A stretch of 64,000 bases of DNA from Mobula hypostoma (Eukaryota), in the NCBI RefSeq assembly GCF_963921235.1, contig NC_086107.1, positions 109,370,001-109,434,000 on the forward strand, given 5' to 3'. Shown here one piece after another: positions 6,960 to 51,878 of the stretch. How positions within the stretch are numbered: the first letter of the stretch is position 1; the number at the start of each line of letters is the position of its first letter. The position numbers and the translations under genes were made by a program. The notes beneath the pieces are model-generated. The model had not been told where the DNA came from, made no database searches, and saw only the letters and a program-made list of their open reading frames with translations.

Positions 6960-7680
6960 TACAATGGATTCCTGTTGACTGTGGTTCGATCTGTTGGTTG
7001 GGGTCAACTATGGATGTTGCATCCCAGCTCTCTACATGATAGCAACATACATCAAAGTTGCTGGTGAACGCAGCAGGCCAAGCAGCATCTATAGGAAGAG
7101 GCGCAGTCGACGTTTCAGGCCGAGACCCTTCGTCAGGTCTCTACATGATATGCAAGCCAAGGCAGTACGATGGAGGACAAGCTGTTCCCCATGGCGCAGG
7201 CTCCCCCTCTCCACACAGCTGATGAATCCAAAGGAACGGCAGAGACCGATACAGTTCGGCACCAGTGGCATCGCAGGAGTTGCCAGTCAGCATTGAACTC
7301 GGTGTACGACTGCCTTAGGGACTCCAGTAGTTCTGGATTTTTCCTCCTGGCTTTATTCCTCAACCCTTCCCCGTGAGTGGGTATTGCCGCAAGGCAGCAG
7401 AGAATTGAGATCAGAGTTTTCCCTCTCCGAGATGAGCTGCCAACCACGGCTGATGAGCCACATCTGTCTGAAGCGACTGGTTATAAGGCACCAGTAACCT
7501 GTCTTTGCCCCTTCTCCTGTCAGTAGAAATGGTTCCGCTAAGCCACACGTGATGGTGAGGAGCTGGACTTGGTTATCAGAAGCTATTTGAGCTGCACGCC
7601 ATTGGGAGCATTTAATAGGTAGTGAGAGCTTGTCCCCACCACTCACCCCCACCCCCTGGGCTATTGACGGCCTGAAGGAA
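6960..7680 (-). mobile_element. RTE/BovB-related non-autonomous element (other copies 12520-12870, 26660-27038, 28058-28150)
   Basis: Multi-copy ~600-bp unit with no intact ORF. Clade assignment is from recall of RTE 5' and 3' ends. Confidence 0.55.
7042..7137 (-). mobile_element. 96-bp Penelope-like terminal fragment with hammerhead core and 13-bp TSD
   Basis: TSD tctctacatgata at 7029-7041 and 7138-7150. The minus strand starts CCTGACGAAGGGTCTCGGCCTGAAACGTCGAC. Confidence 0.85.
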
Positions 7681-8434: not shown

Positions 8435-8548
8435 GTAGGTTCAGTATTTATCAATCAATTTAACTTGTGTGTTCCTAAACACAAGAGATTCTGCAGACGC
8501 TAGAAATCCAGAGCAACACATACAAAATGATGTTGTGTGTTCCTGTAT

Positions 8549-10417: not shown

Positions 10418-11510
10418 CCACCATCAACTGCATCTCTTCCATTTCGCGCATGTCTGCCCTCACCCCATCCTACCACCACCCCGCCAGGGATAGGGTTCCT
10501 CTTGTCCTCACCTACCACTCCACCAGCCTCTGCGTCCGGCACATAATTCTCTATAACTTCCGCCATCTCCAATGGGATCCCACCACCAAGCACATCTTTT
10601 CCTCTCCCCCAACTTTCTGTTTTCCGCAGGGATCGCTTCCTACATGACTCCCTTGTCCATTCATCCCTCCCCACTGATCTCCCTCCTGACACTTATTCTT
10701 GCAAGCAGAACAATTGCTGCACCTGCCCCCACACCTCCCTCCCTACTATTCAGGGCCCCAGGCAGTCCTTCCAGGCGAGGTGACGCTTCGCCTGTGATTC
10801 TGTGAGTCTATTGTATCCGGTGCCCCCGGTGTGGCCTCTTGTATATCGGTCAGACCCGATGATGATTGGGTGACCGCCTCACCAAGCACTTGCGCTCCAC
10901 CTGCTAGAAAAAGAGGGATCTCCCAGTGTCCTCCCGTTTTAATTCCACTTCCCATTCCCATTCCGACGTGTCAGTCCACGGCCTTCTCTGCTGTTGCGGT
11001 GAAACCACAGTCAGGTTGGAGTAGCAAAACCTTGTATTCCATCTGGGTAGCCTCCAACCTCATGGTTTGAACATTGGTTTCTCAAACTTCCGGTAATCCC
11101 CCCCCCCCGGCTTCTCTATACCCCATTCCCATTTTCCTCTCTCACCTTATCCCCTTATCCCCTTGCATCACCTCCCTCTGGTTCTCCTCCCCTTCTTTCC
11201 TTTCTTCTATGGCCTTCTGTCCTCTCCTGTTAGATCCCCCCTTCTCCAGCTCTACATCTCTTTCACCAAGCATCTTCCCAGCTCTTTACTTCACCCCCCT
11301 CCCCCTCCCCCCGGTTTCACCTCTCACCTTGTGTTTCTCCCTCCCCTTTCCCCACCCCCTCATTCTGACTCCTCATCCTGATGAAGGGTCTCGGCCCAAA
11401 ACGCCAATTGTGCTCTTCTCCATAGATGCTGCCTGGCCTGCTGAGTTCCTCCGGCATTTTGTGTGTGTTACTTGGATGTCCAGCCTCTGCAGGTTTGCTC
11501 TCGTTTGTGA
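10418..11510 (+). mobile_element. Penelope-like retroelement, 3' part (GIY-YIG endonuclease and pseudo-LTR)
   Basis: VYCIRCPRCGLLYIGQTR from 10806 (GIY-YIG motif), a decayed downstream HLGSLQP.G motif, a pyrimidine-rich tract, then a decayed hammerhead at 11378-11405. Confidence 0.85.
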
Positions 11511-17559: not shown

Positions 17560-18890
17560 TGGTGTTGGTTTGTGAGGGGTGGGGGTAGGGGGATGGGTGG
17601 TGGGGGTTTGTGAGGGGTGGGGATAGGGGGACGTGTGTTGGGGGTTTGAGGAGTGGGGATACGGGGACGGGTGATGGGTGTTTGTGAGGGGTGGGGATAG
17701 GGGACGGGTGATGGGGGTTTGTGAGGGGTGGGGATAGGGGGACGGGTGGTGGGGGTTTGTGAAGGGTGGGGATAGGGGGACGGGTGTTGGGGTTGTGAGG
17801 CCTGGGGATTGGGGATTTTGAGTGGTGGGGATAGGGGTAAGGGTGTTGGGGATTCTGAGGCCTGGGCATAGGGGATGGGTGTTGGGGTTGTGAGAGATGG
17901 GGATAGGGGGACGGGTGTTGGGGTTTGTGAGGGGTGAGGATGGAGGATTGGTGGTGGGGAGCGTGTGAGGGGTGGGATGGGTGTTGGGGGTTATGAGGGG
18001 TGGGGAAAGGGGGATGGGTGTTGGGGAGTTGTGAGGAGTGAGGATAGAGGAGTGGGTGTTGGTTGTGAAGGGTGGGGATAGGGGGACGGGTGTTGGGGTT
18101 GTGAGGCCTGGGGATTGGGGATTTTGAGTGGTGGGGATAGGGGTAAGGGTGTTGGGGATTGTCAGGCCTGGGGATAGGGGATGGGTGTTGGGGTTGTGAG
18201 AGATGGGGATAGGGGGACGGGTGTTGGGGTTTGTGAGGGGTAGGGATAGGGGGATGGGTGTTGGGGTTTGTGAGGGGTGGGGATGGAGGATTGGTGGTGG
18301 GGAGCGTGTGAGGGGTGGGATGGGTGTTGGGGGTTATGAGGGGTGGGGAAAGGGGGATGGGTGTTGGGGAGGAGTGAGGATAGAGGAATGGGTGTTGGTT
18401 GTGAAGGGTGGGGATAGGTGGATTGGTGGTGGGGAGGGTGTGTGGGGTGGGGATAGGGGGACGGGTGTTGGGGTTGTAAGGGATGGGGGATGGGTGTTGG
18501 GGATTTTGAGTGGTGGGGATAGGGGTAAGGGTGTTGGGGTTGTGAGGCCTGGGGATAGGTGATGGGTGTTGGGGTTGTGAGAGATGGGGATAGGGGTAAG
18601 GATGTTGGGGATTGTGAAGGGTGGGGATAGGGGGATGGGTGTTAGGGTTGTAAGAGATGGGGATGGGTGTTTGGGGGTTTTTGAGTGGTGGGGATAGGGG
18701 TGAGGGTGTTGGGGTTGTGAGGCCTGGAGACAGGGAATGGGTGTTGGGTGTTTGTGAGCTGTGGGAAAAGGGGAAAGGGTGTTGGGTGTTGTGAGAGATG
18801 GGGATTGGTGGTGGGGAGAGTGTGAGGAGTGAGGATGGAAGGAGTGGATGGATGGGGGAAGCTGTGAGAGGTGGGAATCGGGGGGGGGGT
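17560..18890 (+). repeat. G-rich ~30-bp minisatellite with higher-order duplication
   Basis: Unit resembles gggtgttggggttgtgaggggtggggataggggga(c/t). Blocks starting at 17761 and 18067 are near-identical (306-bp offset). Confidence 0.92.
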
Positions 18891-19312
18891 GGAAATGAAG
18901 ACTTCAGAATGCAGAACTCAAAATGAGCACAGCCTCCCTCAGGAGTAATGGATGATGGCTAATACTCCATACAACACTTGTGGAGATTTAATAATCATAA
19001 TAACTTTATTTAAAGAGCTTTAAAAAAAATGATGTAATTCAAAGTGCTTTACAATAGGATAAGAGAACAAACATGAAAATAAAATAAACATGGCAATAAA
19101 AGATAAAAAGATGTTTGTTAAAGACAAGGTTAAATAAATAGGTTTTGACACGTCATTTATAAGCGTGAACTTAGGCTGCGTCCCTTATAGATTTAAGTTT
19201 TGAATTCCACAGTTTAGAAGCATAGGTATTAAAGTGACCGACACAATCTGTGTCTCTCTGCCCCCAAAGAGGGTTTCACATTCTTCCATTATCCTTATCC
19301 CACCTGTCTCAG

Positions 19313-21637: not shown

Positions 21638-22095
21638 CCGTCTGGGTAGCCTCCAACCTGACGGCATGAATATTGACTTCTCTAACTTCCGTTAATGCCC
21701 CACCTCCCCCTCGTACCCCATCCGTTATTTATTTATATACACACATTCTTTTTCTCTCTCTTCTTTTTCTCCCTCTGTCCCTCTGACTATACCCCTTGCC
21801 CATCCTCTCGGTTTTTCCCACCCTCCCCCTTTTCTTTCTCCCTGGGCCTCCTGTCCCATGATCCTCTCAAATCCCTTTTGCCTATCACCTGTCCAGCTCT
21901 TGGCTCCATCCCTCCCCCTCCTGTCTTCTCCTATCATTTCAGATCTCCCCCTCCCCCTCCCACTTTCATATCTCTTACTAGCTCTTCTTTCAGTTAGTCC
22001 TGACGAAGGGTCTCGGCCCAAAACGTCGACTGTACCTCTTCCTAGAGATGCTGCCTGGCCTGCTGCGTTCACCAGCAACTTTGATGTGTGTTGCT
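21638..22095 (+). mobile_element. Penelope-like pseudo-LTR fragment
   Basis: Starts at RLGSLQPDGMNIDFSNFR*, then a pyrimidine tract and a hammerhead motif with GAAA changed to AAAA at 22020. Similar copies lie at 23580-23955 and 24570-25045 (+) and at 25485-25990 and 28505-29030 (-). Confidence 0.85.
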
Positions 22096-22180
22096 GGTGT
22101 ACAACCCTGTTGGTTTTAGTTGTACAAGATTTTTTGAATGTTTAGACCTACTGCATGGTAACAACCCATCAGGCCCAATT

Positions 22181-23186
22181 TGTGTGTAGAGCCCAGGTAT
22201 GTGGGCACCAAGTACCACTATGTGCCCAGGTTCTACTTGTCGCCCTGGCTACGAAGGATGGGTCTGGCCCCACTCCCGCGCAACGCCCCAGTCAGCTGGT
22301 CGTTGCCGGCATACCTGTCCTACGTAGCAAAGTTCTTCCAGGAGAACGCCTTTGACCACAGGGCCATCAGGCAGTGGTCGGCACGTAGTGTCCTGCAGGC
22401 ACTGCAGGAGAAGGACGTGATGGACACAGTGGGGTGGTTCCCTGAGCAGACTGTCCAGTTCATCTGGCAAAATGCCTCATCGCCAGATCTAACCAACAGG
22501 CACCAAGACCTCACCTGGCTGGCGGTGAGAGGGGCCCTCCCAGTCAGAGCCCTCCTGTACGCCCGGAACGTCGTCTCCGCACCCCACTGCCCATGGGAGG
22601 ACTGCAGTGAGGAGGAGTCTGTGACCCACCTCTTTGCACACTGCCAGTTCGCAAAGAGGGTGTGGAGGAGGATGGACGGGCTAGTGTCACGTTTTATCCC
22701 CAGCAGCTGCGTAACAGAGGACTCTCTGATCTACGGGCTGTTCCCGGGGACGCACACGGAGACCAACATCCGGTGCTGCTGGCAGATCATCAACTCAGTG
22801 AAAGACGCTCTTTGGTCGGCCCGAAACTTGATGATCTACCAGCACATGGAGATATCTGTGGGAGAATGCTGCCGACTGGCACATTCTCGGCTGCAGGAGT
22901 ACGTGCTGAGGGACGCACTGAAACTCAGTGCAGCCACCGCAAGGGCCCGGTGGGGAAGGACCACAGGGTGGGTTTCTTCACCCGCGGGAGTGGGAGGGGT
23001 CGGAGGCGGGGAGTATACCCCTCAACAATGATATGGTAAGCTGAACTACTGGAGTGCCACGTGGGTGGCTATAAATACGGATATGTACTGTGTATAATGG
23101 AAACGTATGTAAAGGATGAAAAGTTATTGAATGGTTTATTGTATATATTTATTTTTGAATAAAATATATTTTGAAATAAAAAAAAA
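22181..23186 (+). mobile_element. L1/Tx1-clade LINE, 5'-truncated, young
   Basis: Uninterrupted 283-codon frame with a zf-RVT-type motif (CPWEDCSEEESVTHLFAHC), 3' UTR, AATAAA and poly(A). Perfect 13-bp TSD atcaggcccaatt at 22168-22180 and 23187-23199. Confidence 0.9.
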
Positions 23187-23846: not shown

Positions 23847-23882
23847 AGTCCTGAAGAAGGGTCTCGACCCGAAACGTTGACT
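23847..23882 (+). ncRNA. Minimal type-I hammerhead ribozyme motif (Penelope-associated)
   Basis: AGTC-CTGAAGA-A-GGGT-CTCG-ACCC-GAAAC-GTT-GACT: both core boxes, stem I AGTC/GACT, stem II, GUU triplet. Confidence 0.6.
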
Positions 23883-27705: not shown

Positions 27706-30065
27706 CTCTTGTTTATTCACTTCCGTGGATGCTACCTGAGCTGCTGAGTTCCTCCAGCATTTTGTGAGCGTTGAACATGCCAGAGCAGGGTCATGTAGCC
27801 CTACAGCACCAGCTGTAAGGTCAGGATTCAATTCCCTCTTCAGTCTGTGAGGATTTTGTGCACGCTCCCCATGATAGTGTGGATTTCCTCTCGGTGCTTA
27901 ATTTCCTTCCAGATTCCAAAGATGTACGGTTAGCTTTCGCGAGTGGTGGGCAGGCTATGTTGGTGTCGGAAGTGCAGTGACACTTGCACAACAGCACAAT
28001 CCTCGCTGATGGGAATGACGCATTTCACTGTATGTTTTGATATATATACAACATACATATACTAAGCCCAGTGGAACTGTTTCTTCTGACAGAATAAGGG
28101 GCAAAGGTGAGTTACTGGCACCTTAAAACCAGTCATTTCGGGCAGAAGGGCGGGAGGAGAAGATGGCGGCGCAGTGAAATGATATCGTATTTGTTAAATA
28201 GGGGCCGTGCACAATTCTGATTTGATGGAGACAGCCGTGAGAAGCATGGAGGAACACCTGGAGAAACTTCTGAAATGCCCGGTTCACTGCCGCAGCTACT
28301 GTGCAATCGAGAATCTCCAGAGAGGAAGGCCCCAAATCCTCGGCTTTGCCCGTTGCTGTTTTTTTTGTCAGTATTTTCAGTCTTGGTTTGTCTTGTGTTT
28401 CGGTGATATCATTCTGGAGGAACAAATTGTATCATTTGTTAATGCATGCGTTACTAAATGACAATAAAAGAGGACTGTGTGTCCTCATAATCTAATCTAA
28501 TCTAAACAGTCGACGTTTTGGGCCGAGACCCTTCCTCAAGAGTGGAAAAGAAGGGGGAAGATGCCAGACTAAAATATAGTGGGGAGGGGAAGGAGAATGG
28601 CTGGAAAGTGATAGGTGAAGCCAGGTGGGTGTGGAAGGTCAAGGGCTGGAGATGAAGGAATCTGATAGAAATGGAGACTGGACCTTCGGAGAAAGGGAAG
28701 GAGGAGGGGACCCTGTGGGAGGTGATAGGCAGTTAAGAAGAGTGGCCAGAGTGCGGAATAAAAGAAGAGGGAATTTCTTTTTTTACCAGAAGGAGAGATC
28801 GATATCTACCCCATCAGGTTGGAGGCTACCCCGATGGAATACAAGGTGTTGCTCCTCCACCCTGAGGGGGGGCCTCATCTTGGCACAGGAGGCCATGGAC
28901 CAACGTGTCAGAACGGGAATGGGAATTGGCAGTTAAAATGTTTGGCCACGGGGAAGTTCTGCTTGCGGTGGATGGAGCAAAGGTGCTCGACGAAGCAGTC
29001 CCCCAACTTACAACAGGCCTCACCAATGCTGAGGAGGCTGTACTGTATCGGGAGCACAGGACACAGTCGAAGTTCCCAGCAGATTCACAACTTAAGTTCA
29101 AGCTCACATTTTATGATCAGTCAACTGTACATAAATACCCATGAATACAGCCAGGCAAAAGTGTTCCTCTGGGGCCAGGGTGCAAAAAGCAGAACCTACA
29201 GCACATATAGCAACACCTTATACTCCATCTGGGTAGCCTCCAATCTGATGGCATGAATATCGATTTCTCCTTCCGGTAAAAACAACTCCCTCTCCCTCCC
29301 CTCTTCGTTTATTCCCCACTCTCGCCACTCTTCTCAAATGCCTATCACTTCCCACTGGGTGCCCATCTTCTTCCCTTTCTCCTGTGGTCCACTCTCCTCT
29401 CCTATCAGTTTCCTTCTGCTCCAGCCCTTTATCTTCCCAGCCCATCCTATTATGTTGTAGCTTATCCACTTTTCCAACCACCCAACATTTTATAAGCCTG
29501 TGAAAGACTGGTCTCTCTTTCGCTCTCCAGGAGGAAGGTGTCTGCCGTTGCTCGGTCTCCGTCTCCCTCCCTCTCACTTGATGCTGCCAGGGCTCTGGGT
29601 CTGGGGCAGGGTTTAATCGATGTGGTTTGTGGGTTGAACTCTGTAGTTCACGTTATGACGGGTCTCTGGCTTCTGGTCGCTCCTTTTTCTCTGTTGTTAT
29701 TTTGTACAATTTTGATCGGGGCGGACTGGCGCTGCAGAGTGCAGTCAACGAACGACAGGGTGCCAGATTGAACTGAACTGAATATTCCTGGACTGTTTCG
29801 ATGACGTGGTTTGAAGGTTTATATTCTGTGTTTCTCAATCCATTGTTTGTACCGTTTGTGTAATTTGTTCTTTGCACGTTGGGTGTTTGAATTTTTTCTT
29901 TGAATGAGTTCCATTTTTTTTACTTCGTAGTAGTCTGTGGGAAAACGAATCTGAGTTGTATACTGCATACATACTTCGATAATAAATGCACTTTGAATCT
30001 TTGAGTAAACATACAGTGATATGGCAAATGTATATAACGCTACAAATGTATATAACTAAGAAACA

Positions 30066-30413
30066 TTACAAAGACTGCCTGAAAGCATCCCTCAAAGGCC
30101 TGGGTGTCGACATCAACACGTGGGAGACGCTTGCCCTCGACCGTCCAGCTTGGCGCAGCAAGATCACCACAGGAGCCCGTGCAGCTGAAGTCAGGCGCAT
30201 CATCGAGGCACAACGAAAGCGTGCTGTGCGCAAGGCCCGAGCAGCATCCACTGCCGCGACAGCACCCACCCACTTGTGTCCCACATGCGGGCGAGCCTTC
30301 AGGGCCCGGATTGGCCTCATCAGTCACCTCCGGACCCACAGCCACCAATCTCCCATTTGACTTTGAAGCCATGGTCACCTTCGACGACGAAGGACGAACA
30401 ACAACAACAACAT
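30066..30413 (+). mobile_element. RTE-clade LINE 3' end
   Basis: YKDCLKASLK...WETLALDRPAWR...CPTCGRAFRARIGLISHLRTH (terminal C2H2 finger), short 3' UTR and (CAA)n tail. Confidence 0.85.
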
Positions 30414-31415: not shown

Positions 31416-31428
31416 ATGCCGCGGGGAG
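31416..31428 (+). CDS. PDAP1: PDAP1-like exon 1 (MPRG+G)
   Basis: gagATGCCGCGGGGAG|gtgagg; 13-nt coding first exon matching the PDAP1 N-terminus MPKGG, in phase with exon 2. Confidence 0.88.
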
Positions 31429-31709
31429 GTGAGGGCTGCCGAGGGTTGCCAGAGCGGTGGGGAAGTGTGGAGGGAGGTGATAAGTCAGTTCTGTGAGGGA
31501 CGGCTCTCCTCAGGGGCCTGGGACGGGCACTTGGGCCCGAACGGCGCCATGGCAACTGGGGGTGATGGTGGGGGGGGGAATGGTGAAAGTGACCGTCCCC
31601 CAGGGGAGGGGGAGTAGGGAATGTTGATCCCGAAAAAGGAGCTTGGAGTTGTGTGGGGAGAGGTGGGGTGTTGTATCCCTCCCCTCCCCCCCCCCCGTGG
31701 TTGTAATGC

Positions 31710-32025
31710 TGAGGACCCAGTCAGGGTGGGGAAGTATTAGCTAGGGGGAATGGGTGATGAGGGATGGGGTGACCCTGGGTGGGACCTGAAACGATTGGGG
31801 TGGGATAGCCCTATTTGGATGCTGAAGTGGTTGGGGACTGGGACGGTGACCCTAGTTGGGTGCTGGTGATTGGGGACGGCGGGGTGGAGGTGACCCCAGT
31901 TGGGTGCTGAAGTGGTCGGTATTGGCGTGACCCTAGATGGGTGCTGCATCGATTGGGGACAGTGTGGGACCCTAGTTGGGTGCTGAAGTGCTTGGGGGGG
32001 GGTGGGGGTGACCCTTGTTGGAGGA
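31710..32025. repeat. Degenerate ~40-bp tandem repeat at the start of PDAP1 intron 1
   Basis: About seven copies of the core gtgaccctagttgggtgctg(aagtgg). Confidence 0.7.
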
Positions 32026-32564
32026 GGGAGGTGAAGACAATTTTAAAATGAATGTGAAACCGTGGAATGTAGGAGCCTGACCCCAGTTGTTGGTTTAATA
32101 TGGAAGGTAATAACAAATCAGTGAGAAAATAGCACTGAGATTAGACAACATTTAACAGGATTTCTAAAGGGGGTAGTGATGTATCTAAGTTTGTTGATGA
32201 ATAAATGGAAAGGCAAATTCTGCAGAGAGACTGTAGAGATATAGTTAAGTGGGCAAGGCTCTGGCAGATGAAGTGCAATAATGCTGACTTTAGGGTCATC
32301 CACTTTGGAAGGAAAAATAGCTCAGATCATTATTTAAATTGCACCATTGTTGTAAATAGGGACTTGGGAGTGTCTGCACATGAATTGCAAAAATTAGTTT
32401 GCATGTGCAGCAGGTTATCATAAGCAACTGAGATGTTGGCCTTCATTGTTAGAGGGATTGAGTTTAAGAGCAGGGAGGTTATGTTGCAATTATATGGGGT
32501 CCTGGTGAGGCTATGCCTGGAGTACTGTGTGCACTGTTCTCCTTGAGAAAAGATAAACATGAAC

Positions 32565-33240
32565 TCGGGTTATTTGGGACACATTGGGACCAGTACATTC
32601 TGGCGCATTTAAGCGGCTGCCCCAATTAGCCAAAGTTTCATGGATTTAGTTAGAGCTATTTTTAAAAAAAGACAAGACATGTATTTAAGTAAAATACAGA
32701 ATTAATTAGAACACTACCAATACTATTGTAGTACTATAAAACTATATTACTTCCTAATAATTATTGATGGAGGAATTCATCCATGTCACATTCTTTTAAC
32801 TGTAAATGAGCAAAATCAGCGCAGATAATGGACTGCATACCATGGTGTCGACGATTGCACCCTTCAAGTCTTCATTTTCATTATAACATTCAAGATGATT
32901 GTTGATACCTTCAAATTCTTTATAGTTTCTAACTTGTTGAAGTAATGAAATCGTTGCACTTTCACTTGCGGCCATTTCTGGCATCTCCAGTCCGAACGCT
33001 TGAAACCACAGTGAACAAATCAGTTATGAATTACCTTGCTGCTTATTTCTCGCCAACTATCAGTGACAAAAATCACTGCATTTTGAACACAAACACGCAC
33101 GATGGATACCCTTTAAAACTGATCACTCTGAACATGGTGTAGTGTAATGGCCCACGATTGCACGCATCGGACACTAGTTTGAAACTGTTCGCAACAGTCT
33201 CCTGCACCAATTAGATTGCACCATCCAGTAATTCCCCCAT
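32565..33240 (-). mobile_element. Probable Tigger/pogo-like DNA transposon remnant (reverse copy at about 7685-8120)
   Basis: 32900-33230 is the reverse complement of about 7830-8120, so it is a repeat. The superfamily call is tentative. Confidence 0.45.
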
Positions 33241-33395
33241 TTAACTTTAACGTAATCATGGGACAATTTACAAATACCAGTTAAGCTACCAACGGGTACG
33301 TCTTTAGACTGTGGGGGCTGTGGGGGAACTGGAGCACCCAGAGAACTCCATGTGGTCATGGAGAATGTACAAACTCTTTGCATCAGTCCATAAGA

Positions 33396-33575
33396 CAGGT
33401 GGCCAATCTTTTACATTCCATGCGTCAATTTTTTCAAGCATGAGTTCAGCTGCGCCATACAACTCTTGTACCCACAATTCTTGTAAAAATATGGGACTCG
33501 TGCATGAAAAAAAATTGCATCTGAACTTGTGCGTGAAAAATTGACGCATGGAATATGAAAGGTTGGCCACCCCTG
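33396..33575. mobile_element. hAT-Charlie-type MITE with ~55-bp inverted repeats
   Basis: caggtggccaatcttttacattccatgcgtcaatttttt ... aaaaattgacgcatggaatatgaaaggttggccacccctg; flanks ccataaga / ccataaaa. Confidence 0.8.
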
Positions 33576-33579
33576 CCAT

Positions 33580-35330
33580 AAAACATAGCAGAATTAGGCC
33601 ACTTGGTCATTAAGTCTGTTCTGCCATTCAATCATGCCTGATTGTTTTTTCCCCCTCCTGAGTTCCACTCCCCAGCCTTCTCCCCGTAGCCTTTGATTCC
33701 ATGTCCTATCAAGAACCTACCAATTTCTGCCTTAAATACACCCAGTGACCTTGCCTCCATAGCTGCCTGTGGTAATAAATTCCACAAATTCACCACCCTC
33801 TGGCTAAAGAAATTTCTCAGCATCTGTTTTAAATGGATGCCCCTCTATGCTGAGGCTGTGCCCTCTTGTCCTAGACTCCCCCACCATGATAACCCTTTCA
33901 TTCCTGGAATGATCCTTGTGAACCTCCTCTGAACCCTCTCCAATGCCAGCACATCTTTTCTTGGATGAGGAGTCCAAAACTGTTCACAATACTTAAGGTG
34001 AGCCCTCACCAGTGCCTTATAAAACCTCAGCATCACAACTCTACTGTTGTATTCTAGGCCTCTTGAAATGAATGCTAACATTGCATTTGCCTTCTTCACT
34101 ACTGACTCTACCTGCAAGATAACCGTTAGGGCGTTCTGCACAAGGATGCCCTAAAGGTTCCTTTGCATCTCAGAGTTTTAGATTTTCTCCCCATTTAGAA
34201 AATAGTCTGCACATTTATTTCTAGTACAGAAGTGCATGACCGTGCATTTTCCAATATTGTATTTCATTTTCCTCTCTTTTGCTCATTCTCCTAAACGAAG
34301 TCCTTCTGCGGCCTACCTGTTTCCTTAACACTCCCTGCCCCTCCACCAATCTTCGTTTCATCTGCAAACTTGGCAATAAACCCATCTATTCCATCATCTA
34401 AATCATTGATATGCAGCATAAAAGGAAGCAGTCCCAACACCAACCCCTGCAGAACATCACTAGTCACTGGCACCCAATCAGAAAAGGATCCTTTTATTCC
34501 CCACTCACTGCCTTCTACCAATCAGCCAATGCTCTAATCATGCCAATAACTTTCCTGTAATACCATGGACTCTTAACTTTGTAGGCCACTTCATGTGTGG
34601 CACCTTGTCAAAGGCCTTCTGAAAGTCCAAATATACAACATCCACTGCATCCCCTTTATCTATCCTACACGTAGTCTCCTCAAAGAATTCCAGCGGGTTC
34701 GTCAGGCAAGATTTTCCATTAAGGAAACCATGCTGACTTTGTCCTACCTTGTCTTGTGTCACCAAGTACTTCGTAACCTCATCCTTAACAATTGACTCCA
34801 AAATCTTCCCAACCACTGAGGTCAGGCTAACTGGTGTATAATTTCCTTTCTGATGCCTTCCTCCTTTCTTAAAAAGTGGAGTAACCTATTCAGTTTTCCA
34901 GTTCTCTGGCACCATGCAGGAGTCCAATGATTTTTGAAAGGTAATTACGGATGCCTCCAAAATCTCTACCGCCACTTCTTTCAGAATCCTAGGGTGCAGT
35001 TCATCTGGTCCGGGTGTCTTGTGTACCCTTGGGTCTTTCAGCTTTTTGAGCACCTTCTCCCTTGTAATAGAAACTACACTCACTTTGCTTCCCTCACACT
35101 CTGGCACACTGCTAATGCCTTCCACGGTGAAGACTGATGCAAAATACTCATTTACTTCATCGGCTATCTTCTTGGCCCCCATTATTATTTCTCTGGCCTC
35201 ATTTTCTAGCGGTCCAATATCCAGTCTCATCTTGAAAAAACTTCGACTATCCTCTTTGATATTGTTCGCTAGCTTGCTTTCATATTTCATCTTTTGCCTC
35301 CTAATGATTCTTCTAGTTGCTCTCTGAACC
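33580..35330 (-). mobile_element. CR1-clade LINE ORF2 remnant
   Basis: RT motifs SQHGFLNGKSCLTN, VYLDFQKAFDKVPH, QGLVLGLL and KFADETK, broken by frameshifts. Many shorter CR1 3' fragments occur (4415, 5270, 32120, 40600, 41780, 44520, 49380, 51240, 52380). Confidence 0.92.
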
Positions 35331-35779
35331 TACGTCGCCTGTGCTGTAAGGTGTTATGCTAACCACTCTGCTGTCATGAGAAGGCATCTTACAGAAACAT
35401 AAAATTATGGAAGGGATAGATAGGGTAGAAGTGGGTAGGTGAGACATGGCCTCAAGGTTCAGGGGAATGGATTGAGGACAGAAATGAAAAGAAACTGCTG
35501 TTCACAGAGTAGTGAATCTGTGGAATTCTCTGCCCAGGGAAGCAGTAGAAGCTACCTCAATGAATATCTTTGAGACACTGATAGGTTTTTGCGGAGTTGG
35601 GGAATTAAGGGTAACGGGGGGGGGGTGGGGTGGAGGATAAGGAAAGAAGGTCCTTGGCCAGATCTCCTACAATCTTATTGAATCATGGAGCAGGCTCGGC
35701 AGGTCAGATCGCAACTTAGGCTCCTGTTTCTTATGGTCTTGTGTTCTTAAAATCTTATTTGACAGACCTACTGACGTTT

Positions 35780-36125
35780 TGGGTGGCATGGTGGAGATGC
35801 ACCTCTACCAAAGAAGGTGTAATGTACTCCTTCTCTCATCTAGCCTGCAGGTCACTCTTGGGCAAGTTGTACTACCTGTTCAGCCCCCTGATCAGGATCA
35901 AGTTAAGCCATGGCAGCAGGTGCTGGATTGTCGTATGAGCAGCTGGTACATAGCTCAAGTCCTAGCTATGTGACCACTGACACCAGACACACAATCCCTG
36001 AAGAGTCTTGATAATGGCTGGGGTCACCCGTCTTGTAAACACGCTGCCCAGAAGAAGGCAATGGCAAACCACTACTGTAAAAAAAATTTGCCAAGAACAG
36101 CCATGGAGAGATGATGATTACCCAT
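35780..36125 (+). mobile_element. RTE-related SINE-like repeat (reverse copies 42530-42876 plus 44374-44392, and 58970-59295)
   Basis: Three copies share gaagaaggcaatggcaaaccact, resembling the Bov-A/RTE motif. Confidence 0.55.
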
Positions 36126-36809
36126 GTCACATAATGAACAAGCTGGTATTTTGAAGTAATTTGTAGATTTTACAGTACAGAAAGAAGCCTTTTGATCCAC
36201 CTCCATCCCTGTTTATTTAATTTTGCCTCATGGCACCTCTAATCTCACTTGTCTGCACTTAGCCTGTATCCTTCTGTGTTTTGCCTTTTCAGGTGCCTAC
36301 CAAAGTGAGTGTTAAACATGTACTACCTGGTGGTGAATTCAAATAGCAATCATTCTTGATGTAAAAAGATGTTTTTCCCCTTTAAATCTTCTGGCCTTGA
36401 ACTTGCACCTTCTGATTTTGATATCCTTGTTGCAATGGGATGGAGATTCTATTTTCCCTATCTATGGCTCTTGGGATTTTATATACTGCAACCTCCTTTG
36501 CTCCAAAATAAATTTGTCTTCAAAACTAAAGTCCTCCAATCCAGGCAACATCCTGATGAATATCTTCTACGATTACATCAAGTTCAAAGTAAATTTATTA
36601 TCAAGCTACCTACATCACCATACACTACCATGAGATTCATTTTCTTGCGGACATTTACAGGAACAATAAAGAAATACAATAGTTTATTTTTTTTTAAAAA
36701 AAACTATACAAAGACTAGCAAACATCCAGCATGAAAAAGAGGACTAACCTTAACCCTAATGTGAATAATAAATAAAGTAATAAATAATTTTGAGAAAATG
36801 AAAATCAGT

Positions 36810-37259
36810 CCGTCTGGGTAGCCTCCAACCTGATGGCATGAACATTGACTTCTCTAACTTCCGCTAGGCCCCACCTCCCCCTCGTACCCCAGCTGTTACT
36901 CATTTTTATGCACACATTCTTTCTCTCACTCTCCTTTTTCTCCCTCTGTCCCTCTGAATATACCTCTTGCCCATCCTCTGGGTCACCCCCCCCCCGTCTT
37001 TCTTCCCGGACCTCCTGTCCCACGATCCTCTCGTATCCCCTTTTACCTATCACCTGTCCAGCTCTCGGCTCTATCCCTCCCCCTCCTGTCTTCTCCTATC
37101 ATTTTGCATCTCCCCCTCCCCCTCCAGCTTTCAAATCCCTTACTCACTCTTCCTGCAGTTAGTCCTGACGAAGGGTCTCGGCCTGAAACGTCGACTGCGC
37201 CTCTTCCTATAGATGCTGCCTGGCCTGCTGCGTTCACCAGCAACTTTGATGTGTGTTGC
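36810..37259 (+). mobile_element. Penelope-like pseudo-LTR insertion in PDAP1 intron 1
   Basis: 12-bp TSD ttgagaaaatga at 36790-36801 and 37260-37271; interrupts a Rex1-like repeat. Confidence 0.85.
37161..37196 (+). ncRNA. Minimal type-I hammerhead ribozyme motif, intact core
   Basis: AGTC-CTGACGA-AGG-GTCTCGG-CCT-GAAAC-GTC-GACT: stem I AGTC/GACT, stem II AGG/CCT, palindromic ACGT in place of stem III, GUC cleavage triplet. Confidence 0.7.
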
Positions 37260-40200
37260 TTGAGAAAATGAGTTGTAGGTTCCTTGAAAGTGAGTCCATA
37301 GGTTGTGGGATCAGTTCAGCATTGAGGTAGTGAAGTTATCCACACTGGTTCAGGAGAGCAGTAACTGTTCTTGAACCTGGTGGTGTGGGGGCTAAGGTTC
37401 CCATACCACTTGCCCGATGGTAGCAGCGAGAAGAGGGCATGGCCTAGATGGTGGAGATCCTTGATTATGGATGCTGCTCTCCAATGGCAGCACTCCTTGT
37501 AAATCTGCTTAGAGATGGGGAGGGATTTGCCTGTGATAGACTGGGCTGTGTCCATCGCTTTTTGCAAACCTTTCTGATCCTGGGCGTTGGTGTTTCCATA
37601 CCAGGCCATGATGCAGTCTGTCAAGATGCTCACCACCATGCATCTATAGAAGTTTGTCAGAGTTTTAGATGACGTGCTAAATAATCTAAAATGCTATTAG
37701 AAATTTGCTTGATGTCAAAATTCCTTTATTTTGGATGTGATGTGATGTTAAATTAGACTAGTACTTTCCCCTAGACTACGTGCAAGAATCTTGCACCATA
37801 TTTCAACCAATAATTATTGATCAAAACTCGAAAGATATGGCAGACAGCTCATTAATCTCACAGTGGGACTTCAGCTATGATTCAACAGCTACCACTTTGT
37901 TTTAATGATGTGGAAGATAAGTGAGTTCTTATTTTGGATATCAGGAAGTAGCAATTGTCTTCAATTGCTGCTGAACCAGCACAGGGAGCGAAGTTGTTTC
38001 CAACTACACAACTTTGTGAATCTGAACACATCGAATTGGAACTCGGGATAATGGTACAAATCCTGATTAAAATGGGAACTTTTGAAGTGGAAAGTAACAA
38101 AATCTGCAGATTTCCTCTTGTTTGAAATTAATGCTTGCATGGCTAGCCTATTTGATTATTACAGATTGTATCTTAAAAGGGTTGTATAAAGTCAAGCACT
38201 TACAAAATTAAAATGTCCATGTTCAGTAGTTTTTTTTATTGCTGAGAATTGATTTTTTTTGGTGTGGGGGGAGTTCATAATTCCTCAGTGTATACACCAC
38301 TGCACAAGGGACATAAACTCAGTGAGCATTGCTGCTACCTTTGACTAACTTGCCTCAGAATGCACTGTGTGAAATTTTTTAACTTTGACCAGCCTCATCT
38401 CTGCTTACACATTCTAGTCTTTCAGAGAAGATTCCATTATTCTGCATTGTCGTCTTTTGCAATATTATTTATCTGTATCTTTTAAAATAGCAGGATTTTC
38501 TGAGCTAGTTTGGTTAAGCCACTGCCATCAACATTGTAAACACCAGAGATTCTGCAGATGCTGGAAATCCAGAGTAACAATAAAATGATGGAGGAACTCA
38601 TCAGGTAAAGCAGCATCTGTGGAAATGAATAACGTCGACATTTCGGGCCAAGACTCTTCATCAAGATTCAAGAAGGGTCCTTAAAAGTCTCAGCCTGAAA
38701 TATTGACTCTTTATTCCTTTCCACAGATGCTACCTGACTCTAGCATTTTGCGTGTGTCATCAACATTGTTCCCTCCTTTCCATTGTTTCCAGGAATCTGT
38801 TCTTTGCAATTTACTTAAGACTTCTGCTTCTCATGCCACGAAGTCTTGTAGTTGTTGGTATTGAGCTGACTGAGGGTGTAAACCCACTTCTCCTGGGCCC
38901 ACACATCCATCAATAATTGTCAGTCATCTTAACCCTGTTGAGTGGGATACAGGTCACCAGACCTTCTAAAGTTAAGGTGACACTTTCAGGTTCAATACTT
39001 ACTAACTCATGCTAAAGCCAAATTCCCCTGCACTTTGCTTTTGTCAAGCAAGAATTGCTAAACAAGACCAGTTCCTTAGTATACGCTCACTGGCCACTTC
39101 ATTAATTGCAGGAGGTGCTTAATAAAGTGGTCACCTGGTGTATGTTCATGATCTTGTGTTACTATAGCCCATCCACTTCAAGGTTTGATGTGTTGTGCAT
39201 TCAGAGCTGCTCTTCTGCACACCACTGTTGGAACACATGTTTAACTGACATCTTCTTGTCAGCTTAAACCAGCATGGCCATTCTCTTCTGGCCTCTCTCA
39301 TTAACAAGCTGTTTTCACCCACCGAACTGTTATTCCCTGGATTTTTTTTTTCTATTTTTCACGCTTTCTCTGTAAACTCTAGAGACTGTTGTGTGTGAAA
39401 ATCCCAGGAGATCAGCAGCAGTTTGAGATACTCAAACCACCCCATCTGGCACCAACAATCATTTCACAGTCAAAGTCATTTGGATCACGTTTCTTCCCAA
39501 TTCTGATGTCTGGTCTGAATAACAACTGAACCTCTTGAACATGTCTGCATGCTTTTATGCATTGAGTTGCTGCCACGTGATTAGCTCAGTAGAAATTTAC
39601 ATTAACGAGCAGGTAGACCTAATAAAGTGGCTACTGAGTGTATTTCAGAATATGAAGCAAGCAAGATCTATGAGAAAATTTGGGGGACAATATGTAAGAT
39701 AAACCTTGCAATTAAGCAATCAGTACCATGTTTATAAGAGTTTTATCATTTGGTAAGGGCAGGATTAGATTAGAACATAAAAAAGTGAAAGCTTAAACAT
39801 AAAACATCCTGTTGAAATTATTCTGAGGTTATCTTGTGGGTTTGGTTCAGTGAACAACGGAGCTCAATGCCATTAGCAAACTTTGTCTTTGTGTGCTTAA
39901 CATTTGGGTCGGTTTCAGCTTCATCTCGACGCAGTGCACCTTGGCAGGATGAGGTCACAGGATGAACATGGCTTTTGGATTCATTGTCCCCGGATTCTGC
40001 ATGGCACATATACAAAACAAGCATATTATCAAGGGTGAAACCATGTAAATTTCCTGATTCTGGAATCAGGGCTCATATTTAACAGTAGAAGGTTTGCCTG
40101 CACAGGCAAAAGTAGTGGAAATGAGGTGGATAATTACCAATAAAATAGCAATGTGAAAAAGCCATATAGAAGGGCAACTTTCCATTGTTTTTGTGACCGA

Positions 40201-42350
40201 TAACTAGTTTTCCTTTATTCAAAAGGGGAAAAATAGTTACATTCTCCTGCTTAGAGTCCCTTCCAACCTCAGCAATTGACTTTTATAAACTGCTGTGGGC
40301 TCTGTGGCAATTCTACTCCACAGTGATAGGCTGAGGCTGTGGGCCTGCTCTGGGTTTTGTCTATGGACTCGCTTTCAATCTAAATGCAATTTGCTTTTAT
40401 TGTTTGCACGATTTGTTTTTTCCCTCTCTCCCTGCACATTAGGTGCTTGTGGCTATTTTTATGGGTGCTTTTGAGTTTCTTGCTTTTGTGGCTGCCCGTA
40501 AGGAAATGAATCTCAAGGCTGGGGAGTAGGACTGAGGACAAGAAAAAAGGATCAGCCATGATTGAATGGCGGAGCAGTCATGACAGGCCAAGTGGCCTAA
40601 CTCTGCTCCTATTTTTTATGGTCCTGTGTAAACCCACTTCAAAATCAATCTAACCCTTCTGTCTAACCCTTTTTTCTCTTCATCATTCATGTGCCTACCT
40701 AAGAGGTTCTGAAATGCCCTTGATGTATCTGCCTGTACCACCACCCCTGGCAGAATGTTCCACGCACCTATCATTCTCTGTGCAAAGAACTTCCCTTTGA
40801 CATCACCCTTATGTTTCCCTCTAATCACCTTAAAATTACGTCCCTTGTATTAGCCGTTTCCTCGAGAAGAAATCTCTGTCTATCCACTCAGTCTATGCCT
40901 CTTGTCTTGTATGCCTTTTATCTTTTACACCTCTATCAAGTCATCCCTCTTCCTCCTCCATTCTAAAGAGAAAAGCCCTGACTCGCTCAACCTGTCTTCA
41001 ATAGAAATGCCCCCTAGTCTGGGCAGTATCCTGGTAACCTCCTGTGCATCCTCTCTAAAGCTTCCACATCCTTCCTATAATGAGTTGACCAGAACGGAAC
41101 ACAATATTCCAAGTGTGGTCTAGCCAGAGTTTTATACAGCTGCAACGTTACCTCACTGCTGTTGAACTCAATCCCCGACTAATGAAGGCCAATGTACCAT
41201 ACGCCGTCTTGCACCCTATCAACTTGTGTGGCAACTTTGAGAGGTTAGAAAACGTGGGTAAAGTGAATGGGGTGGATGGTAGATATTATTGGATAACGTG
41301 AGTGAAGTGAGGTGAGGTCGATGGTGAGTGTTATTGGAAAGCTTGGGTGAAGAGACCCAAAGAAGATAAGAGGGTTCAACAGGATGTTCTGCCTGGTAGT
41401 AAATTTGTATCATTACTGTTAATTATTTGTGTTTCTCCCCCTGAGCATTTGTCTGTGAGACTGAGAGATTGAGATTGCTAAATTTGTGGTGCAGTTATTT
41501 CTCAAATCAAAGCAAATGTGACACAATGTCAACAGATCGTTAAACCTTTAAGAATTGCTAAACAAGCATTAGTCCTTTGTGGGTACTTTATAACTGTACT
41601 TGGTTTTCTTTAACAAGCTGAGTTATCCACTGCTTCACTTAAATGTTGAAATCTTTTGGGATGGCCCTGCATATACCTATAATCGAACATGTATCTGTTT
41701 AACATTGCATGATTAGCTTCAAAGATTGAATTGACTTTTTGTGTAATGTATAAAGACTGTAGCATCCTAGTGCTTTAGTCATAAGGCCTTAAGATATAGG
41801 AGCAGTATTAGGCAGTTTGCTCTGCCATTTGATCATGACTGATTTACTATCCCTCTCAGACGCATACTCCTGTCATGTAACCTTTAATGCCCTTATTAAT
41901 CAAGAACCTATCATCCTCATCATTTTAAATATACCCAATGACTTGGCCTCCATAGCCATGTGTGACAATTAATTCCACAGAATCATCACGCTCTGGCTGA
42001 ACAAATTCCTCCTCATCCCTTTTCTAAATAGACATCCTTCTATTCTGAGGCTGTGACAATAACATTGAAGCATAAACATTATTACCTTTATGAAGCATGA
42101 GCGTATTATACTCAGAATATTAAATTGTTTTAAATATTTATGGTCACTATAAATGGGCAGAAGATGTTGCCACATTTCAACAGTAAGAAAAAAGATCTTT
42201 TTTATTTTGCAGTATGACTGAATATTGACATTTTATGCCATACGTGTGGAATTTCCTGAAGTTTGAACCTGAGGAAATCTTGAATTGTGTGACATGTCAT
42301 CCTATCTACTTGATCAAAGCTAATGATTTTTTTCCCCTTAACCCTTCTAG

Positions 42351-42433
42351 GAAAACGGGGTCACAAGGGGAGGGCAAAGCAGTTTACAAACCCAGATGAG
42401 ATCGACGCTCAGATGAAAGCAGAGAAAGAAAAG
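42351..42433 (+). CDS. PDAP1: PDAP1-like exon 2
   Basis: Acceptor cccttctag|GA. Translates [28 protein letters not shown] (human [28 protein letters not shown]). Donor is AAG|gcaagt (GC). Confidence 0.93.
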
Positions 42434-42878: not shown

Positions 42879-44371
42879 CAGTTGCAAGAAAAAGTTTGTG
42901 AACCCTTTGCAATAACCTGTTTTTTTTTGCATTAATTACTCATAAGATGTGGTCTATCTTCAACTAAGTCACAAGAATAAACGAACACAATCTGCCTGAA
43001 CTAATAACACACAAACTAATGTACTTTACATGTCTTTATTGAATACATTGTTTAATCATTCAGTCCAAATTGGAAAAAGTATGTCAGACTGGCACACCGG
43101 CAAGGAGGAATTTTACACCATTCCTCCATACAAAACTGTTTCGGTTCATCAATATTTCTGGGATACCTTGCATGAATAGCCCTCTTTGGGTCATGCCACA
43201 GCATCTCAATTGGGTTGTCTGGACTCTGCCTTGACTATTCCAAAACACGATTTTTCTTTGTTTTAAACCATTTCGTTGATTTACTCTTGGGTTTTGGATC
43301 ATTGTCTTGTTGCATTATCCAACTTCTATCAAGCTTTAGGTGATGGACTGCTACCCTGACTTTCTCCTGTAAAACGTCTTGATACAATTTTGAATTCATT
43401 GTTCCCTCTATGATTGCAAGTTGTCCAGGTCCTGTTGCAGCAAAGCAGCCCCAAACCATGATGCTCCTTCCACCATGCTTCACAGTCGGGATGAGGTTTT
43501 GGTGTTGCTGTACAATGCCTTTTTTCCTCCAAATATAATGGTGTGCCTTTCTGCCAAAAAGCTCAATTTTTGTCTCGTCTGTCCACAGAACATTGTTCCA
43601 GAAGTGTTATGAAACATCCTGGTGGTCTTTTTCAAACTTTAGGCATGTAGCAATGTTTCTTTGAAGAGCAGTGGTTTCCTCTGTGGTGTCCTTCCATGAG
43701 CACCATTCTTCTTCAGTACTCTTATAGTGGACACACGAACAGGGACTGTAGCAGGTTCTAGAGATTTCTGCAGGACTTTTGCTGTTACTCTTGGGTTCTT
43801 TTTCACCTCGTTCAGCATTGCACATTGTGTTCTTGGTGCGATCTTTGCAGGACACCCACTGCCAGGGAGAGTAGCAACAGTATTGTTTCCTTCATTTGTC
43901 GGGAGTTTCTTTTTCTGTGGACTGATGAATACTCGGGTCTTTAAAAATGCTTTTGTAGCCTTTTCCAGCTTTATGCATTTCTAATTCTTGTAAGGTCCTC
44001 TGAAAGTTGTTTTGATTGAGGTATGGTGCACATAAACAGATTTTTCTTGAGAAGAGTAGGCTCTGTCAGTAACCTGACTTTGTGTATCTTTTTTATAGAG
44101 CAGGGCACCTCCACAACCCACACCTCCAATCTCGTACACCTGACTCCAAATGGCTTTTGTAGAAGGTATTACCCCAAAGGTTCACGTACTTGTTTTGAAC
44201 CTGGACTGTGATTGTTTAAATGGTGTGCTCAGTATTGATGAGAAGAAGTACAGTTGCTTCTGTGTTATTTGTTTAGACAGATTGTTTGTCTATTATTGTG
44301 ACTTGGATGAAGATCAGGCCGCATTTTATGAGTAATTAGCAAGGGGTTCACAAACTTTTTTCTTGCAACTG
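42879..44371 (-). mobile_element. Tc1-family transposon with both ends and a decayed transposase
   Basis: TA TSDs at 42877-42878 and 44372-44373. TIRs start cagttgcaagaaaaagtttgtgaaccc and extend imperfectly for about 200 bp. Motifs KHGGRSIMVWGCF and QQDNDPK, with stops and frameshifts. Confidence 0.95.
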
Positions 44372-45728: not shown

Positions 45729-45794
45729 GCCAGAGACCTGCCCGAACATGGAAGCGATAGTGATTCTGACGACAGTAGTGAAGATGACTCTGAG
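45729..45794 (+). CDS. PDAP1: PDAP1-like exon 3 (acidic Ser/Asp tract)
   Basis: Acceptor ttttttttatag|GCC, donor GAG|gtgact; 66 nt, phase 0/0. Translates ARDLPEHGSDSDSDDSSEDDSE. Confidence 0.88.
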
Positions 45795-50207: not shown

Positions 50208-50332
50208 CCCAAGAAGAAAGGAGTGGAAGGTTTAATAGAAATTGAGAACCCCAACAGAATAGTACAGAAAAACAAGAAAATAACTGAAGTGGATCTCAAT
50301 CCCCGAAACCGCGAGCTCTCCAGGCGAGAAAG
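50208..50332 (+). CDS. PDAP1: PDAP1-like exon 4 (PP28 domain start)
   Basis: Acceptor atttcag|CCC, donor AG|gtgaga. Translates [41 protein letters not shown], with the hallmark KGVEGLI.IENPNR. Confidence 0.96.
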
Positions 50333-51726: not shown

Positions 51727-51878
51727 GGAAGAGATCGAGAAACAGCAAGCTCGGGAACGGTACATGAAACTCCACCTCGAAGGGAAGACCGAGCAGGCAC
51801 GGGCTGACCTGGCGCGGCTTGCAATCATCCGGAAGCAGCGGGAAGATGCCGCCAGGAAGCGTGAGCATGAGAAAAAAC
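51727..51878 (+). CDS. PDAP1: PDAP1-like exon 5
   Basis: Acceptor catgcag|G, donor C|gttagt. Translates [50 protein letters not shown]. Confidence 0.96.

What the first reader, a model, noticed from the sequence alone, without database searches (positions are those of the whole stretch)
37161..37196. Dispersed family of minimal hammerhead ribozymes, one intact copy in sense inside the PDAP1 pre-mRNA
Seen: the Penelope termini carry AGTC-CUGANGA-stem II-GAAAC-GUH-GACU. Cores are intact at 37161 (+), 23847 (+) and 7105-7137 (-). Decayed copies occur near 560, 11378, 21997, 24910, 25585, 28508, 38633, 57449 and 58111; several have GAAA changed to AAAA, as expected from CpG decay. Known: Penelope-like elements carry minimal hammerheads with a palindromic stem III thought to work as dimers. 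Inference: the 37161 copy is transcribed within intron 1 and could cleave only when paired with a second copy.
Basis: partly seen in the sequence, partly recalled or inferred. Interest (0 to 1): 0.7.

Follow-up and report, generated by a model that had tools for sequence, protein, structure and literature searches.

The report
Penelope hammerhead relic in PDAP1 intron
A jumping-gene fragment that landed in the first intron of the PDAP1 gene carries a small self-cutting RNA motif of an already described kind, but this lone copy has no intact partner in the gene and is most likely a silent passenger.

Summary
37161-37196 (+) is a minimal type-I hammerhead motif near the 3' end of a 5'-truncated Penelope-like element (36802-37259). 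The element has a 12-bp target duplication, sits inside an older repeat, and lies in sense in PDAP1 intron 1 (31429-42350). About 16 copies or half-copies lie in the window; 3 of 12 scored keep the whole core and 4 of 12 have G12>A. The class is described (Cervera 2014), and this scan noted the same family many times on this genome and others. Corrections: 37161 has G10.1-U11.1 instead of the conserved G-C; the 7140 copy has a broken stem I; the best-formed copy is 23847, outside the gene. Folding predicts that the 37161 core is trapped in an inactive hairpin, and the active dimer lies 10.5 kcal/mol above two monomers. No intact sense partner was found in the gene; the nearest sister copy is antisense. 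A related PLE hammerhead needed the element's protein to cleave (Frangieh 2024). The window copies show no covariation; 26 outside motifs do. Cleavage and RNA ends were not testable. Verdict: new member of a known kind, probably inert.

The parts
37161..37196 (+). Minimal type-I hammerhead motif. Stem I 37161-37164 with 37193-37196 (a fifth U-G pair 37160/37197). Core C3-A9 37165-37171, extra A 37172, stem II 37173-37176 with 37181-37184 (10.1-11.1 is G-U), G12-A14 37185-37187, 4-nt palindrome 37188-37191, C17 37192. Predicted cut after 37192.
   Evidence: (27.4 bits, E 9e-6 with a model built from 26 outside motifs)
36802..37259 (+). 5'-truncated Penelope-like insertion: last codons of the endonuclease ORF (about 36810-36863), pyrimidine-rich stretch, hammerhead, 3' tail. 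Family homology starts at about 36809.
   Evidence: (loose ends before 36809 and behind 37263)
36790..36801 (+). Left copy of a 12-bp target-site duplication
   Evidence: this 12-mer occurs only at 36790 and 37260 in the window
37260..37271 (+). Right copy of the 12-bp target-site duplication; its first 4 bases also match the family tail
36560..37700 (.). Older repeat sequence interrupted by the insertion (ends approximate); three other copies in the window run across the junction unbroken
   Evidence: 5790-6076, 16198-16297, 56161-56277; table 5c (one contig joins 36787 to 37281 with 24 other letters)
31416..31428 (+). PDAP1 exon 1 coding part (ATG, then GT donor), in a CpG-rich stretch
42351..42433 (+). 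PDAP1 exon 2; closes intron 1 (31429-42350); its donor reads GC
45729..45794 (+). PDAP1 exon 3
50208..50332 (+). PDAP1 exon 4
   Evidence: (PP28 E 0.003)
51727..51878 (+). PDAP1 exon 5; no later exon found
   Evidence: (PP28 E 1.1e-21)
38533..38676 (-). Antisense sister copy in the same intron (decayed hammerhead at 38632-38669, C3>U)
38672..38709 (+). Sense, heavily decayed hammerhead remnant (4 core changes)
23847..23882 (+). Best-formed copy: full core, G10.1-C11.1, GUU triplet; upstream of PDAP1
   Evidence: (34.8 bits)
7105..7140 (-). Core-intact copy, 97% like the 37161 copy over 100 bp, stem I broken
21996..22031 (+). G12>A copy in a sister element (21638-22095, 88% like the 37161 element)
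10704..11500 (+). Longer sister fragment: broken GIY-YIG endonuclease frame followed by a decayed hammerhead at 11374
   Evidence: (GIY-YIG E 7e-4, below the Pfam cut-off)

Best explanation
A Penelope-like retroelement (PLE) family carries a minimal hammerhead in its 3' pseudo-LTR. One reverse-transcribed, 5'-truncated copy inserted into an older repeat in PDAP1 intron 1 and made a 12-bp duplication (shown). It is copied passively into the pre-mRNA and spliced out with the intron (inferred from gene anatomy). The motif served the parent element, where tandem copies and possibly the element's protein let it fold and cut (from the literature). Here it is alone, is predicted to misfold, and cuts too rarely to matter to PDAP1 (inferred).
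For: Duplication and empty-site copies. A GIY-YIG frame in a sister copy, 68% like a ray protein of 422 aa. 3238-10593 contigs per run pile on these 541 bp, so the family is very large. 9 of 12 window copies have core damage. G5-G8 are paired in about 97-99% of the predicted monomer ensemble, and the hammerhead-compatible fold has p 0.0006. The double hammerhead scores -9.5 kcal/mol against -20.0 for two monomers and -28.3 for the best dimer. That 10.5 gap compares with a median of 4.5 in 26 outside motifs; 6 of 26 reach 10 or more and 3 of 26 show the same trap. With 50-200 nt of flank, stem I forms with p 0.05-0.08. No intact sense partner was found in the gene, and the antisense neighbour can pair with it (-98.6 against -52.9 +/- 11.4 for 175 random intron pieces, best random -87.5). 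Cervera 2014: a single min-HHR gave no detectable cleavage, dimers little. Frangieh 2024: no cleavage without protein and no RNA-seq reads ending at the site.
Against: All 11 core positions scored, the GUC triplet and both stems are kept at 37161. U11.1 and C7 look like the majority state of the family in four public runs (C at 37184 in only 21-29% of depth; no row listed for 37169), so they may be features of a successful master and not lesions. Nearest-neighbour folding ignores tertiary contacts and proteins, and it also predicts misfolding of 23847 in context, so it discriminates poorly. Nothing here measures cleavage.
Confidence: 0.87

Rival explanations
1. Conditional cleavage: the copy is caged by the core-sequestering hairpin but cuts when the PLE protein, or a second abundant family transcript in trans, refolds it. 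PDAP1 intron 1 would then be cut when the element is active.
For: Protein-assisted cleavage is shown for the anole PLE hammerhead. The core is complete. The family is very abundant. The caged state (C7) appears to be the family norm (by absence of a listed variant).
Against: Only a 4-bp palindrome would join a trans dimer, and better inactive dimers exist. In the anole element the RNA needed for activity includes the first 172 nt of the ORF, whereas this copy ends about 67 nt after the cut site; whether it keeps a protein-binding site is unknown. No full PLE ORF was seen in the window. No reads ended at the site in the anole. A cut deep in an 11-kb intron need not block splicing (own knowledge).
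Confidence: 0.08
2. Domesticated intronic ribozyme that regulates PDAP1, like the conserved RECK-intron hammerhead of amniotes.
For: Sense orientation in intron 1 and a complete core. Such domestication is described for other type-I hammerheads (PMC6155905 passages).
Against: It is a recent insertion nested in another repeat, with the duplication still perfect, and 97% like an unrelated copy over 100 bp. It lacks helix III and the loop contacts of canonical motifs. One core-intact sense copy among about 16 copies per 64 kb needs no selection.
Confidence: 0.02
3. Chance resemblance to a hammerhead.
For: Rfam gives no hammerhead hit; the 36-mer folds no better than shuffles (z -0.37); there is no covariation among 12 window copies (80/500 and 117/500 shuffles reach the observed values).
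Against: Rfam also gave no hammerhead hit in 12 of 12 outside loci that bear this motif. The same architecture elsewhere predicts stems that were not in the search pattern: stem I of 4 bp or more in 43 of 104 against 8.1 +/- 2.5 shuffled, and inner stem II pairs in 79 of 98 against 24.9; covariation 0/500. All four traits listed by Cervera 2014 are seen in the family.
Confidence: 0.03

Closest known systems
Minimal hammerheads (min-HHR) in the pseudo-LTRs of metazoan Penelope-like elements (Cervera and De la Pena 2014, PMC4209133; parts 1-2 of 4 read)
   Same: Type-I topology, short helix I, one extra nucleotide between 9 and 10.1, palindromic 15.2-16.2 without helix III, position downstream of a GIY-YIG ORF end, mostly dispersed single copies from truncated elements.
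   Different: The host is probably a cartilaginous fish, a group not named in the parts read. Helix II is 4 bp here (7-8 bp in Schistosoma). This copy, and apparently most of the family's depth, has G10.1-U11.1 in place of the conserved G-C. C at N7 is rare elsewhere (4 of 104).
Small hammerhead variants that cleave as dimers (Lunse, Weinberg and Breaker, RNA Biol 14:1499; not held, seen only as a reference title and through the review PMC6765202)
   Same: Very short palindromic stem III; dimer model.
   Different: No tandem partner at this locus; activity untested.
Poseidon PLE of Anolis carolinensis, PAc (Frangieh 2024, PMC11167929; parts 1-2 of 4 read)
   Same: Vertebrate PLE with a pLTR hammerhead; insertion at an AT-rich site; 3' end downstream of the ribozyme, so the template was probably uncut at that site.
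   Different: PAc is full length, with the ORF starting at stem II; this is a 458-bp 3' fragment. Clade (Poseidon or Neptune) was not tested.
Non-LTR retrozymes (bioRxiv 10.64898/2026.07.22.740005; part 1 of 5 and passages read)
   Same: PLE-derived type-I hammerhead repeats; reported in one chondrichthyan; about 42-44% of Xenopus copies overlap introns.
   Different: Retrozymes are defined as tandem units; this copy is solitary and keeps the ORF end.
Conserved intronic hammerheads of amniotes (RECK, CTCL; PMC6155905 passages)
   Same: Type I, intronic.
   Different: Those are canonical and conserved across species; this one is minimal, repetitive and recently inserted.

Membership tests
PLE minimal hammerhead | Conserved core C3-A9, G12-A14, A15.1, U16.1 and H17 | tested here: met
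   11 of 11 positions and GUC at 37161
PLE minimal hammerhead | Helix I of 4-5 bp, open (type I) | tested here: met
   5 of 5 pairs, one U-G
PLE minimal hammerhead | Extra nucleotide between 9 and 10.1 | tested here: met
   A37172, invariant in 12 of 12; this register is favoured over the unbulged one, -7.0 against -5.6
PLE minimal hammerhead | G10.1-C11.1 pair (highly conserved, not absolute) | tested here: inconclusive
   Not kept in this copy (G-U); kept in 6 of 12 window copies, including 23847; C in 21-29% of depth in four runs
PLE minimal hammerhead | Palindromic 15.2-16.2, no helix III | tested here: met
   4-nt palindrome at 37188-37191
PLE minimal hammerhead | Covariation of stems | tested here: inconclusive
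   Not significant in 12 window copies; strong in 26 and 104 outside motifs of the same architecture, which are partly related to each other
PLE minimal hammerhead | Self-cleavage as a dimer or with protein help | not testable with these tools
   Only contigs were available, which cannot show RNA ends
Penelope-like element | GIY-YIG endonuclease upstream of the terminal repeat | tested here: met
   Sister copy: Pfam GIY-YIG E 7e-4, below the cut-off; 68% to P0001, itself GIY-YIG E 5e-4. Its C-terminus matches 36814-36855 (14 aa, 79%) and endonuclease-like frames in 4 of 118 outside hammerhead loci
Penelope-like element | Telomerase-like RT in the same ORF | not tested
   No RT part of this element was seen in the window, and no genome is held
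Penelope-like element | Tandem or partial-tandem arrangement | tested here: inconclusive
   Not at this locus; single contigs in 2 of 4 runs join the 3' part back to 36809
Non-LTR retrozyme | At least two tandem hammerhead-bearing units | tested here: not met
   Single unit between target duplications
Rfam hammerhead families | Score at the gathering threshold | tested here: not met
   No hit at E up to 5 or 10; none in 12 of 12 control loci either, so Rfam does not see this variant
Domesticated intronic hammerhead | Conservation at the orthologous position | not testable with these tools
   No vertebrate genomes were searchable; a young nested insertion argues against it

The most novel reading that the evidence does not exclude
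The dominant subfamily carries a built-in cage: C at N7 lets the core pair with the palindrome, and 11.1 is U. The cage keeps the many intronic sense copies silent until the PLE protein opens them. Activating the element would then nick host pre-mRNAs such as PDAP1, and the uneven loss of the CpG at C11.1-G12 (kept in 2 of 12 against 22 of 32 at three other CpGs) would record pressure to disable such copies.
Probability: 0.05. Interest if true: 0.6.

Novelty: new member of a known kind. Interest (0 to 1): 0.15.

Why it matters
As most likely read, it matters little: it is one of very many relics of a described ribozyme-bearing retroelement, in a lineage (probably rays) for which my searches found no dedicated paper. 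Its practical value is as test material. A genome this dense in near-identical minimal hammerheads allows a genome-wide test of the open question of whether PLE hammerheads cut in vivo and whether hosts select against sense intronic copies.

Tried and rejected
Rfam found no hammerhead in the window or the 251-nt region, nor in 12 control loci, so the miss is uninformative. No whole genome is held, so there is no copy count, orientation test or orthology test. Sequencing runs: no RNA holder listed; 8 runs hold 0.08-0.23 of the words. Four of the 8 were laid; all are contigs of uncertain RNA status and show no RNA ends, strand or expression. An unbulged register with A10.1-U11.1 is less stable than the bulged one. 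My first idea, that U11.1 is a private CpG lesion, is weakened because T is the majority letter in all four runs (reference bias possible). The CpG excess at C11.1-G12 (Fisher p 0.005; p 0.023 when the TG copies are dropped) is not taken as selection: the copies are not independent, the site was picked after looking, and TG may be inherited. The last PDAP1 exon was not found, so whether 57449 and 58149 are inside the transcript is open; neither is an intact motif. A neighbouring BUD31 gene, sought with recalled motifs, was not found. The Lunse paper is not held. A search for rate data on the 10.1-11.1 pair gave nothing usable; that G-U lowers the rate is recalled only. No supplementary files were read; those of Cervera 2014 and the 2026 preprint may list cartilaginous-fish motifs.

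Full report
Observation. The 36 bases at 37161-37196 (+) read as a type-I hammerhead: a 4-5 bp stem I, the C3-A9 core, one extra A, a 4-bp stem II with a 4-nt loop, G12-A14, a 4-nt palindrome in place of helix III, and C17 at 37192. A strict pattern finds three such cores in the window (37165+, 23851+, 7136-) and none in 100 shuffles. I scored the 12 that align without gaps and left out 557, 57449 and the two halves. Three of 12 keep all 11 core positions, and 4 of 12 have G12>A. G12 is the general base (PMC6155905 passage), so those four are very likely dead.

Is it a hammerhead? Rfam gives no hammerhead hit, but it also gave none in 12 of 12 outside loci with this architecture. Among 104 distinct motifs, stem I of at least 4 bp was present in 43 (shuffled mean 8.1, maximum 17 of 2000), and the two unfixed stem II pairs in 79 of 98 (shuffled 24.9). 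The 26 motifs of the same length and register covary (0 of 500 shuffles), though some are relatives. A model built on these 26 ranks eight window copies first: 23847 at 34.8 bits and 37161 at 27.4, against 13.0 for the best non-family hit. The core part of that score is circular, since the pattern came from the window. The 12 window copies show no covariation (80 and 117 of 500 shuffles), as expected of decaying descendants of a few masters. The architecture matches the traits listed by Cervera and De la Pena 2014 (PMC4209133, parts 1-2 of 4 read): extra nucleotide after A9, G10.1-C11.1, palindromic 15.2-16.2.

The carrier. The motif lies in a 458-bp insertion (36802-37259) between two copies of a 12-mer found nowhere else in the window. 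Three other copies of the surrounding older repeat run across the junction unbroken. The insertion starts in the last codons of an ORF. A longer sister copy (10704-11500) extends that ORF into a broken GIY-YIG frame (Pfam E 7e-4, below the cut-off), 68% identical to a 422-aa protein annotated in the ray Mobula hypostoma. The host is therefore probably a cartilaginous fish; I did not determine the species. In four public runs (two studies, contigs only, RNA status guessed), 3238-10593 contigs pile on these 541 bp. Loose ends show the family continuing before 36809 and behind 37263, and single contigs in two runs join the 3' part back to 36809, as in tandem copies. The RT domain was not seen, so the clade is untested.

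The host gene. PDAP1 lies on the + strand: exon 1 (ATG 31416-31428), exon 2 (42351-42433), exon 3 (45729-45794), exon 4 (50208-50332) and exon 5 (51727-51878). Together they give an open 146-codon frame, with PP28 hits on exons 4 and 5. The motif is thus in sense in the 10.9-kb intron 1. Transcription itself was not shown. The last exon was not found.

How intact is it? In the published register, 37161 has G10.1-U11.1, not G-C, and so do four other window copies; the 7140 copy also has a broken stem I. The best-formed copy is 23847, 13.3 kb upstream of 37161 and upstream of the gene. I first took U11.1 for a private CpG lesion, but C makes up only 21-29% of the depth at 37184 in the four runs. 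It may be the state of a dominant subfamily; reference bias cannot be excluded, and 40 variant rows were not shown. C at N7 lets G5-G8 pair with the palindrome and C17. The core is paired in about 97-99% of the predicted monomer ensemble, and the hammerhead-compatible fold has p 0.0006, against 0.64 for 23847. The double hammerhead scores -9.5 kcal/mol, against -20.0 for two monomers and -28.3 for the best, inactive dimer; for 23847 the first two figures are -13.5 and -15.2. Among the 26 controls, 3 show the same trap, 6 have a gap of 10 or more, and the median gap is 4.5. So 37161 is at the poor end but not unique. These models ignore tertiary contacts and proteins, and they predict misfolding of 23847 in its flanks too.

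Partner. Sense copies downstream of the start are 38673 (four core changes), 57449 (insertion in the core, A15.1>G) and a half copy at 58149; none is intact. The nearest well-preserved neighbour, 1.4 kb away, is antisense and could mask the motif (-98.6 kcal/mol against -52.9 +/- 11.4 for 175 random intron pieces, best -87.5).

Mechanism. Shown: a PLE 3' fragment inserted with a target duplication into PDAP1 intron 1 and keeps a complete hammerhead core. From the literature: a single min-HHR gave no detectable cleavage and dimers cleaved weakly. The anole PLE hammerhead cleaved only with the element's protein, was dispensable for insertion in vitro, and left no read ends at its site (PMC11167929, parts 1-2 of 4). 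Inferred: this copy is transcribed and spliced out as a passenger and seldom or never cuts (0.87). Rivals: cleavage conditional on PLE protein or a trans partner (0.08), chance resemblance (0.03), domestication (0.02).

Known or new. The class was described in 2014 with thousands of copies in fish, coelacanth and frog genomes. A 2026 preprint (part 1 of 5 and passages) reports PLE-derived hammerhead repeats in one chondrichthyan and finds about 42-44% of Xenopus copies overlapping introns, though depleted relative to intron size. Five literature searches found no paper on this family in rays or on PLE hammerheads cutting host pre-mRNA; subscription papers and supplements were not seen, and the Lunse paper was not held. 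This scan has noted the same family repeatedly: 61 of 200 notes on this genome fit 'hammerhead Penelope', and others lie on other genomes. These are unchecked notes and are not counted as support.

Loose end. The CpG spanning C11.1-G12 is kept in 2 of 12 copies against 22 of 32 at three other CpGs (p 0.005), although one of those has the same 4-base context on the other strand. Shared ancestry and picking the site after looking may explain it; a genome-wide test is needed.

Verdict: observation confirmed, interpretation partly supported, new member of a known kind, interest 0.15.

Noticed in passing
window 42433/42434: PDAP1 intron 2 appears to use a GC donor (GC-AG intron): the frame with exon 3 is kept only with the cut before the GC. 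Not confirmed by reads.
   Followed up: partly
window 51878 onward: No last PDAP1 exon was found up to 64000. Reading through the exon 5 donor gives a stop after one codon, so the protein may end there or the last exon may lie beyond the window.
   Followed up: partly
C11.1-G12 position in 12 window copies: This CpG is lost far more often (kept 2 of 12; TG 6, CA 4) than three other CpGs of the motif (kept 22 of 32). Unexplained; inheritance is likely part of it.
   Followed up: partly
window 58047-58258, 454-658 and 38533-38709: Family copies in inverted, back-to-back pairs; the 58102-58170 junction forms a long hairpin that gave a chance Rfam microRNA match.
   Followed up: no
window 7140 (-), 58147 (-), 557 (+): Several copies begin at or next to the 5' edge of the hammerhead, and contigs show loose ends before 37159-37162. 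This may be a preferred truncation point, or just the limit of similarity between subfamilies.
   Followed up: no
window 23847-23882 (+): Best-formed motif of the window and the better choice for an assay; no host gene was identified around it.
   Followed up: partly
window 17500-18960 and 31700-32010: Low-complexity, tandem-like G-rich or C-rich repeat arrays.
   Followed up: no
window 2935-3573 (-), 22162-23028 (+), 29986-30357 (+), 43238-43606 (-), 61904-62428 (+): Fragments of other mobile elements, with Pfam hits to ALKBH8_N, zf-RVT, zf-C2H2 (below cut-off), DDE_3 (below cut-off) and endonuclease domains.
   Followed up: partly
L003, L006, L007, L017, L030 and others: About a fifth of the metagenome motifs (21 of 104 by the register rule) carry two extra bases after the palindrome, a tiny helix III variant.
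   Followed up: no
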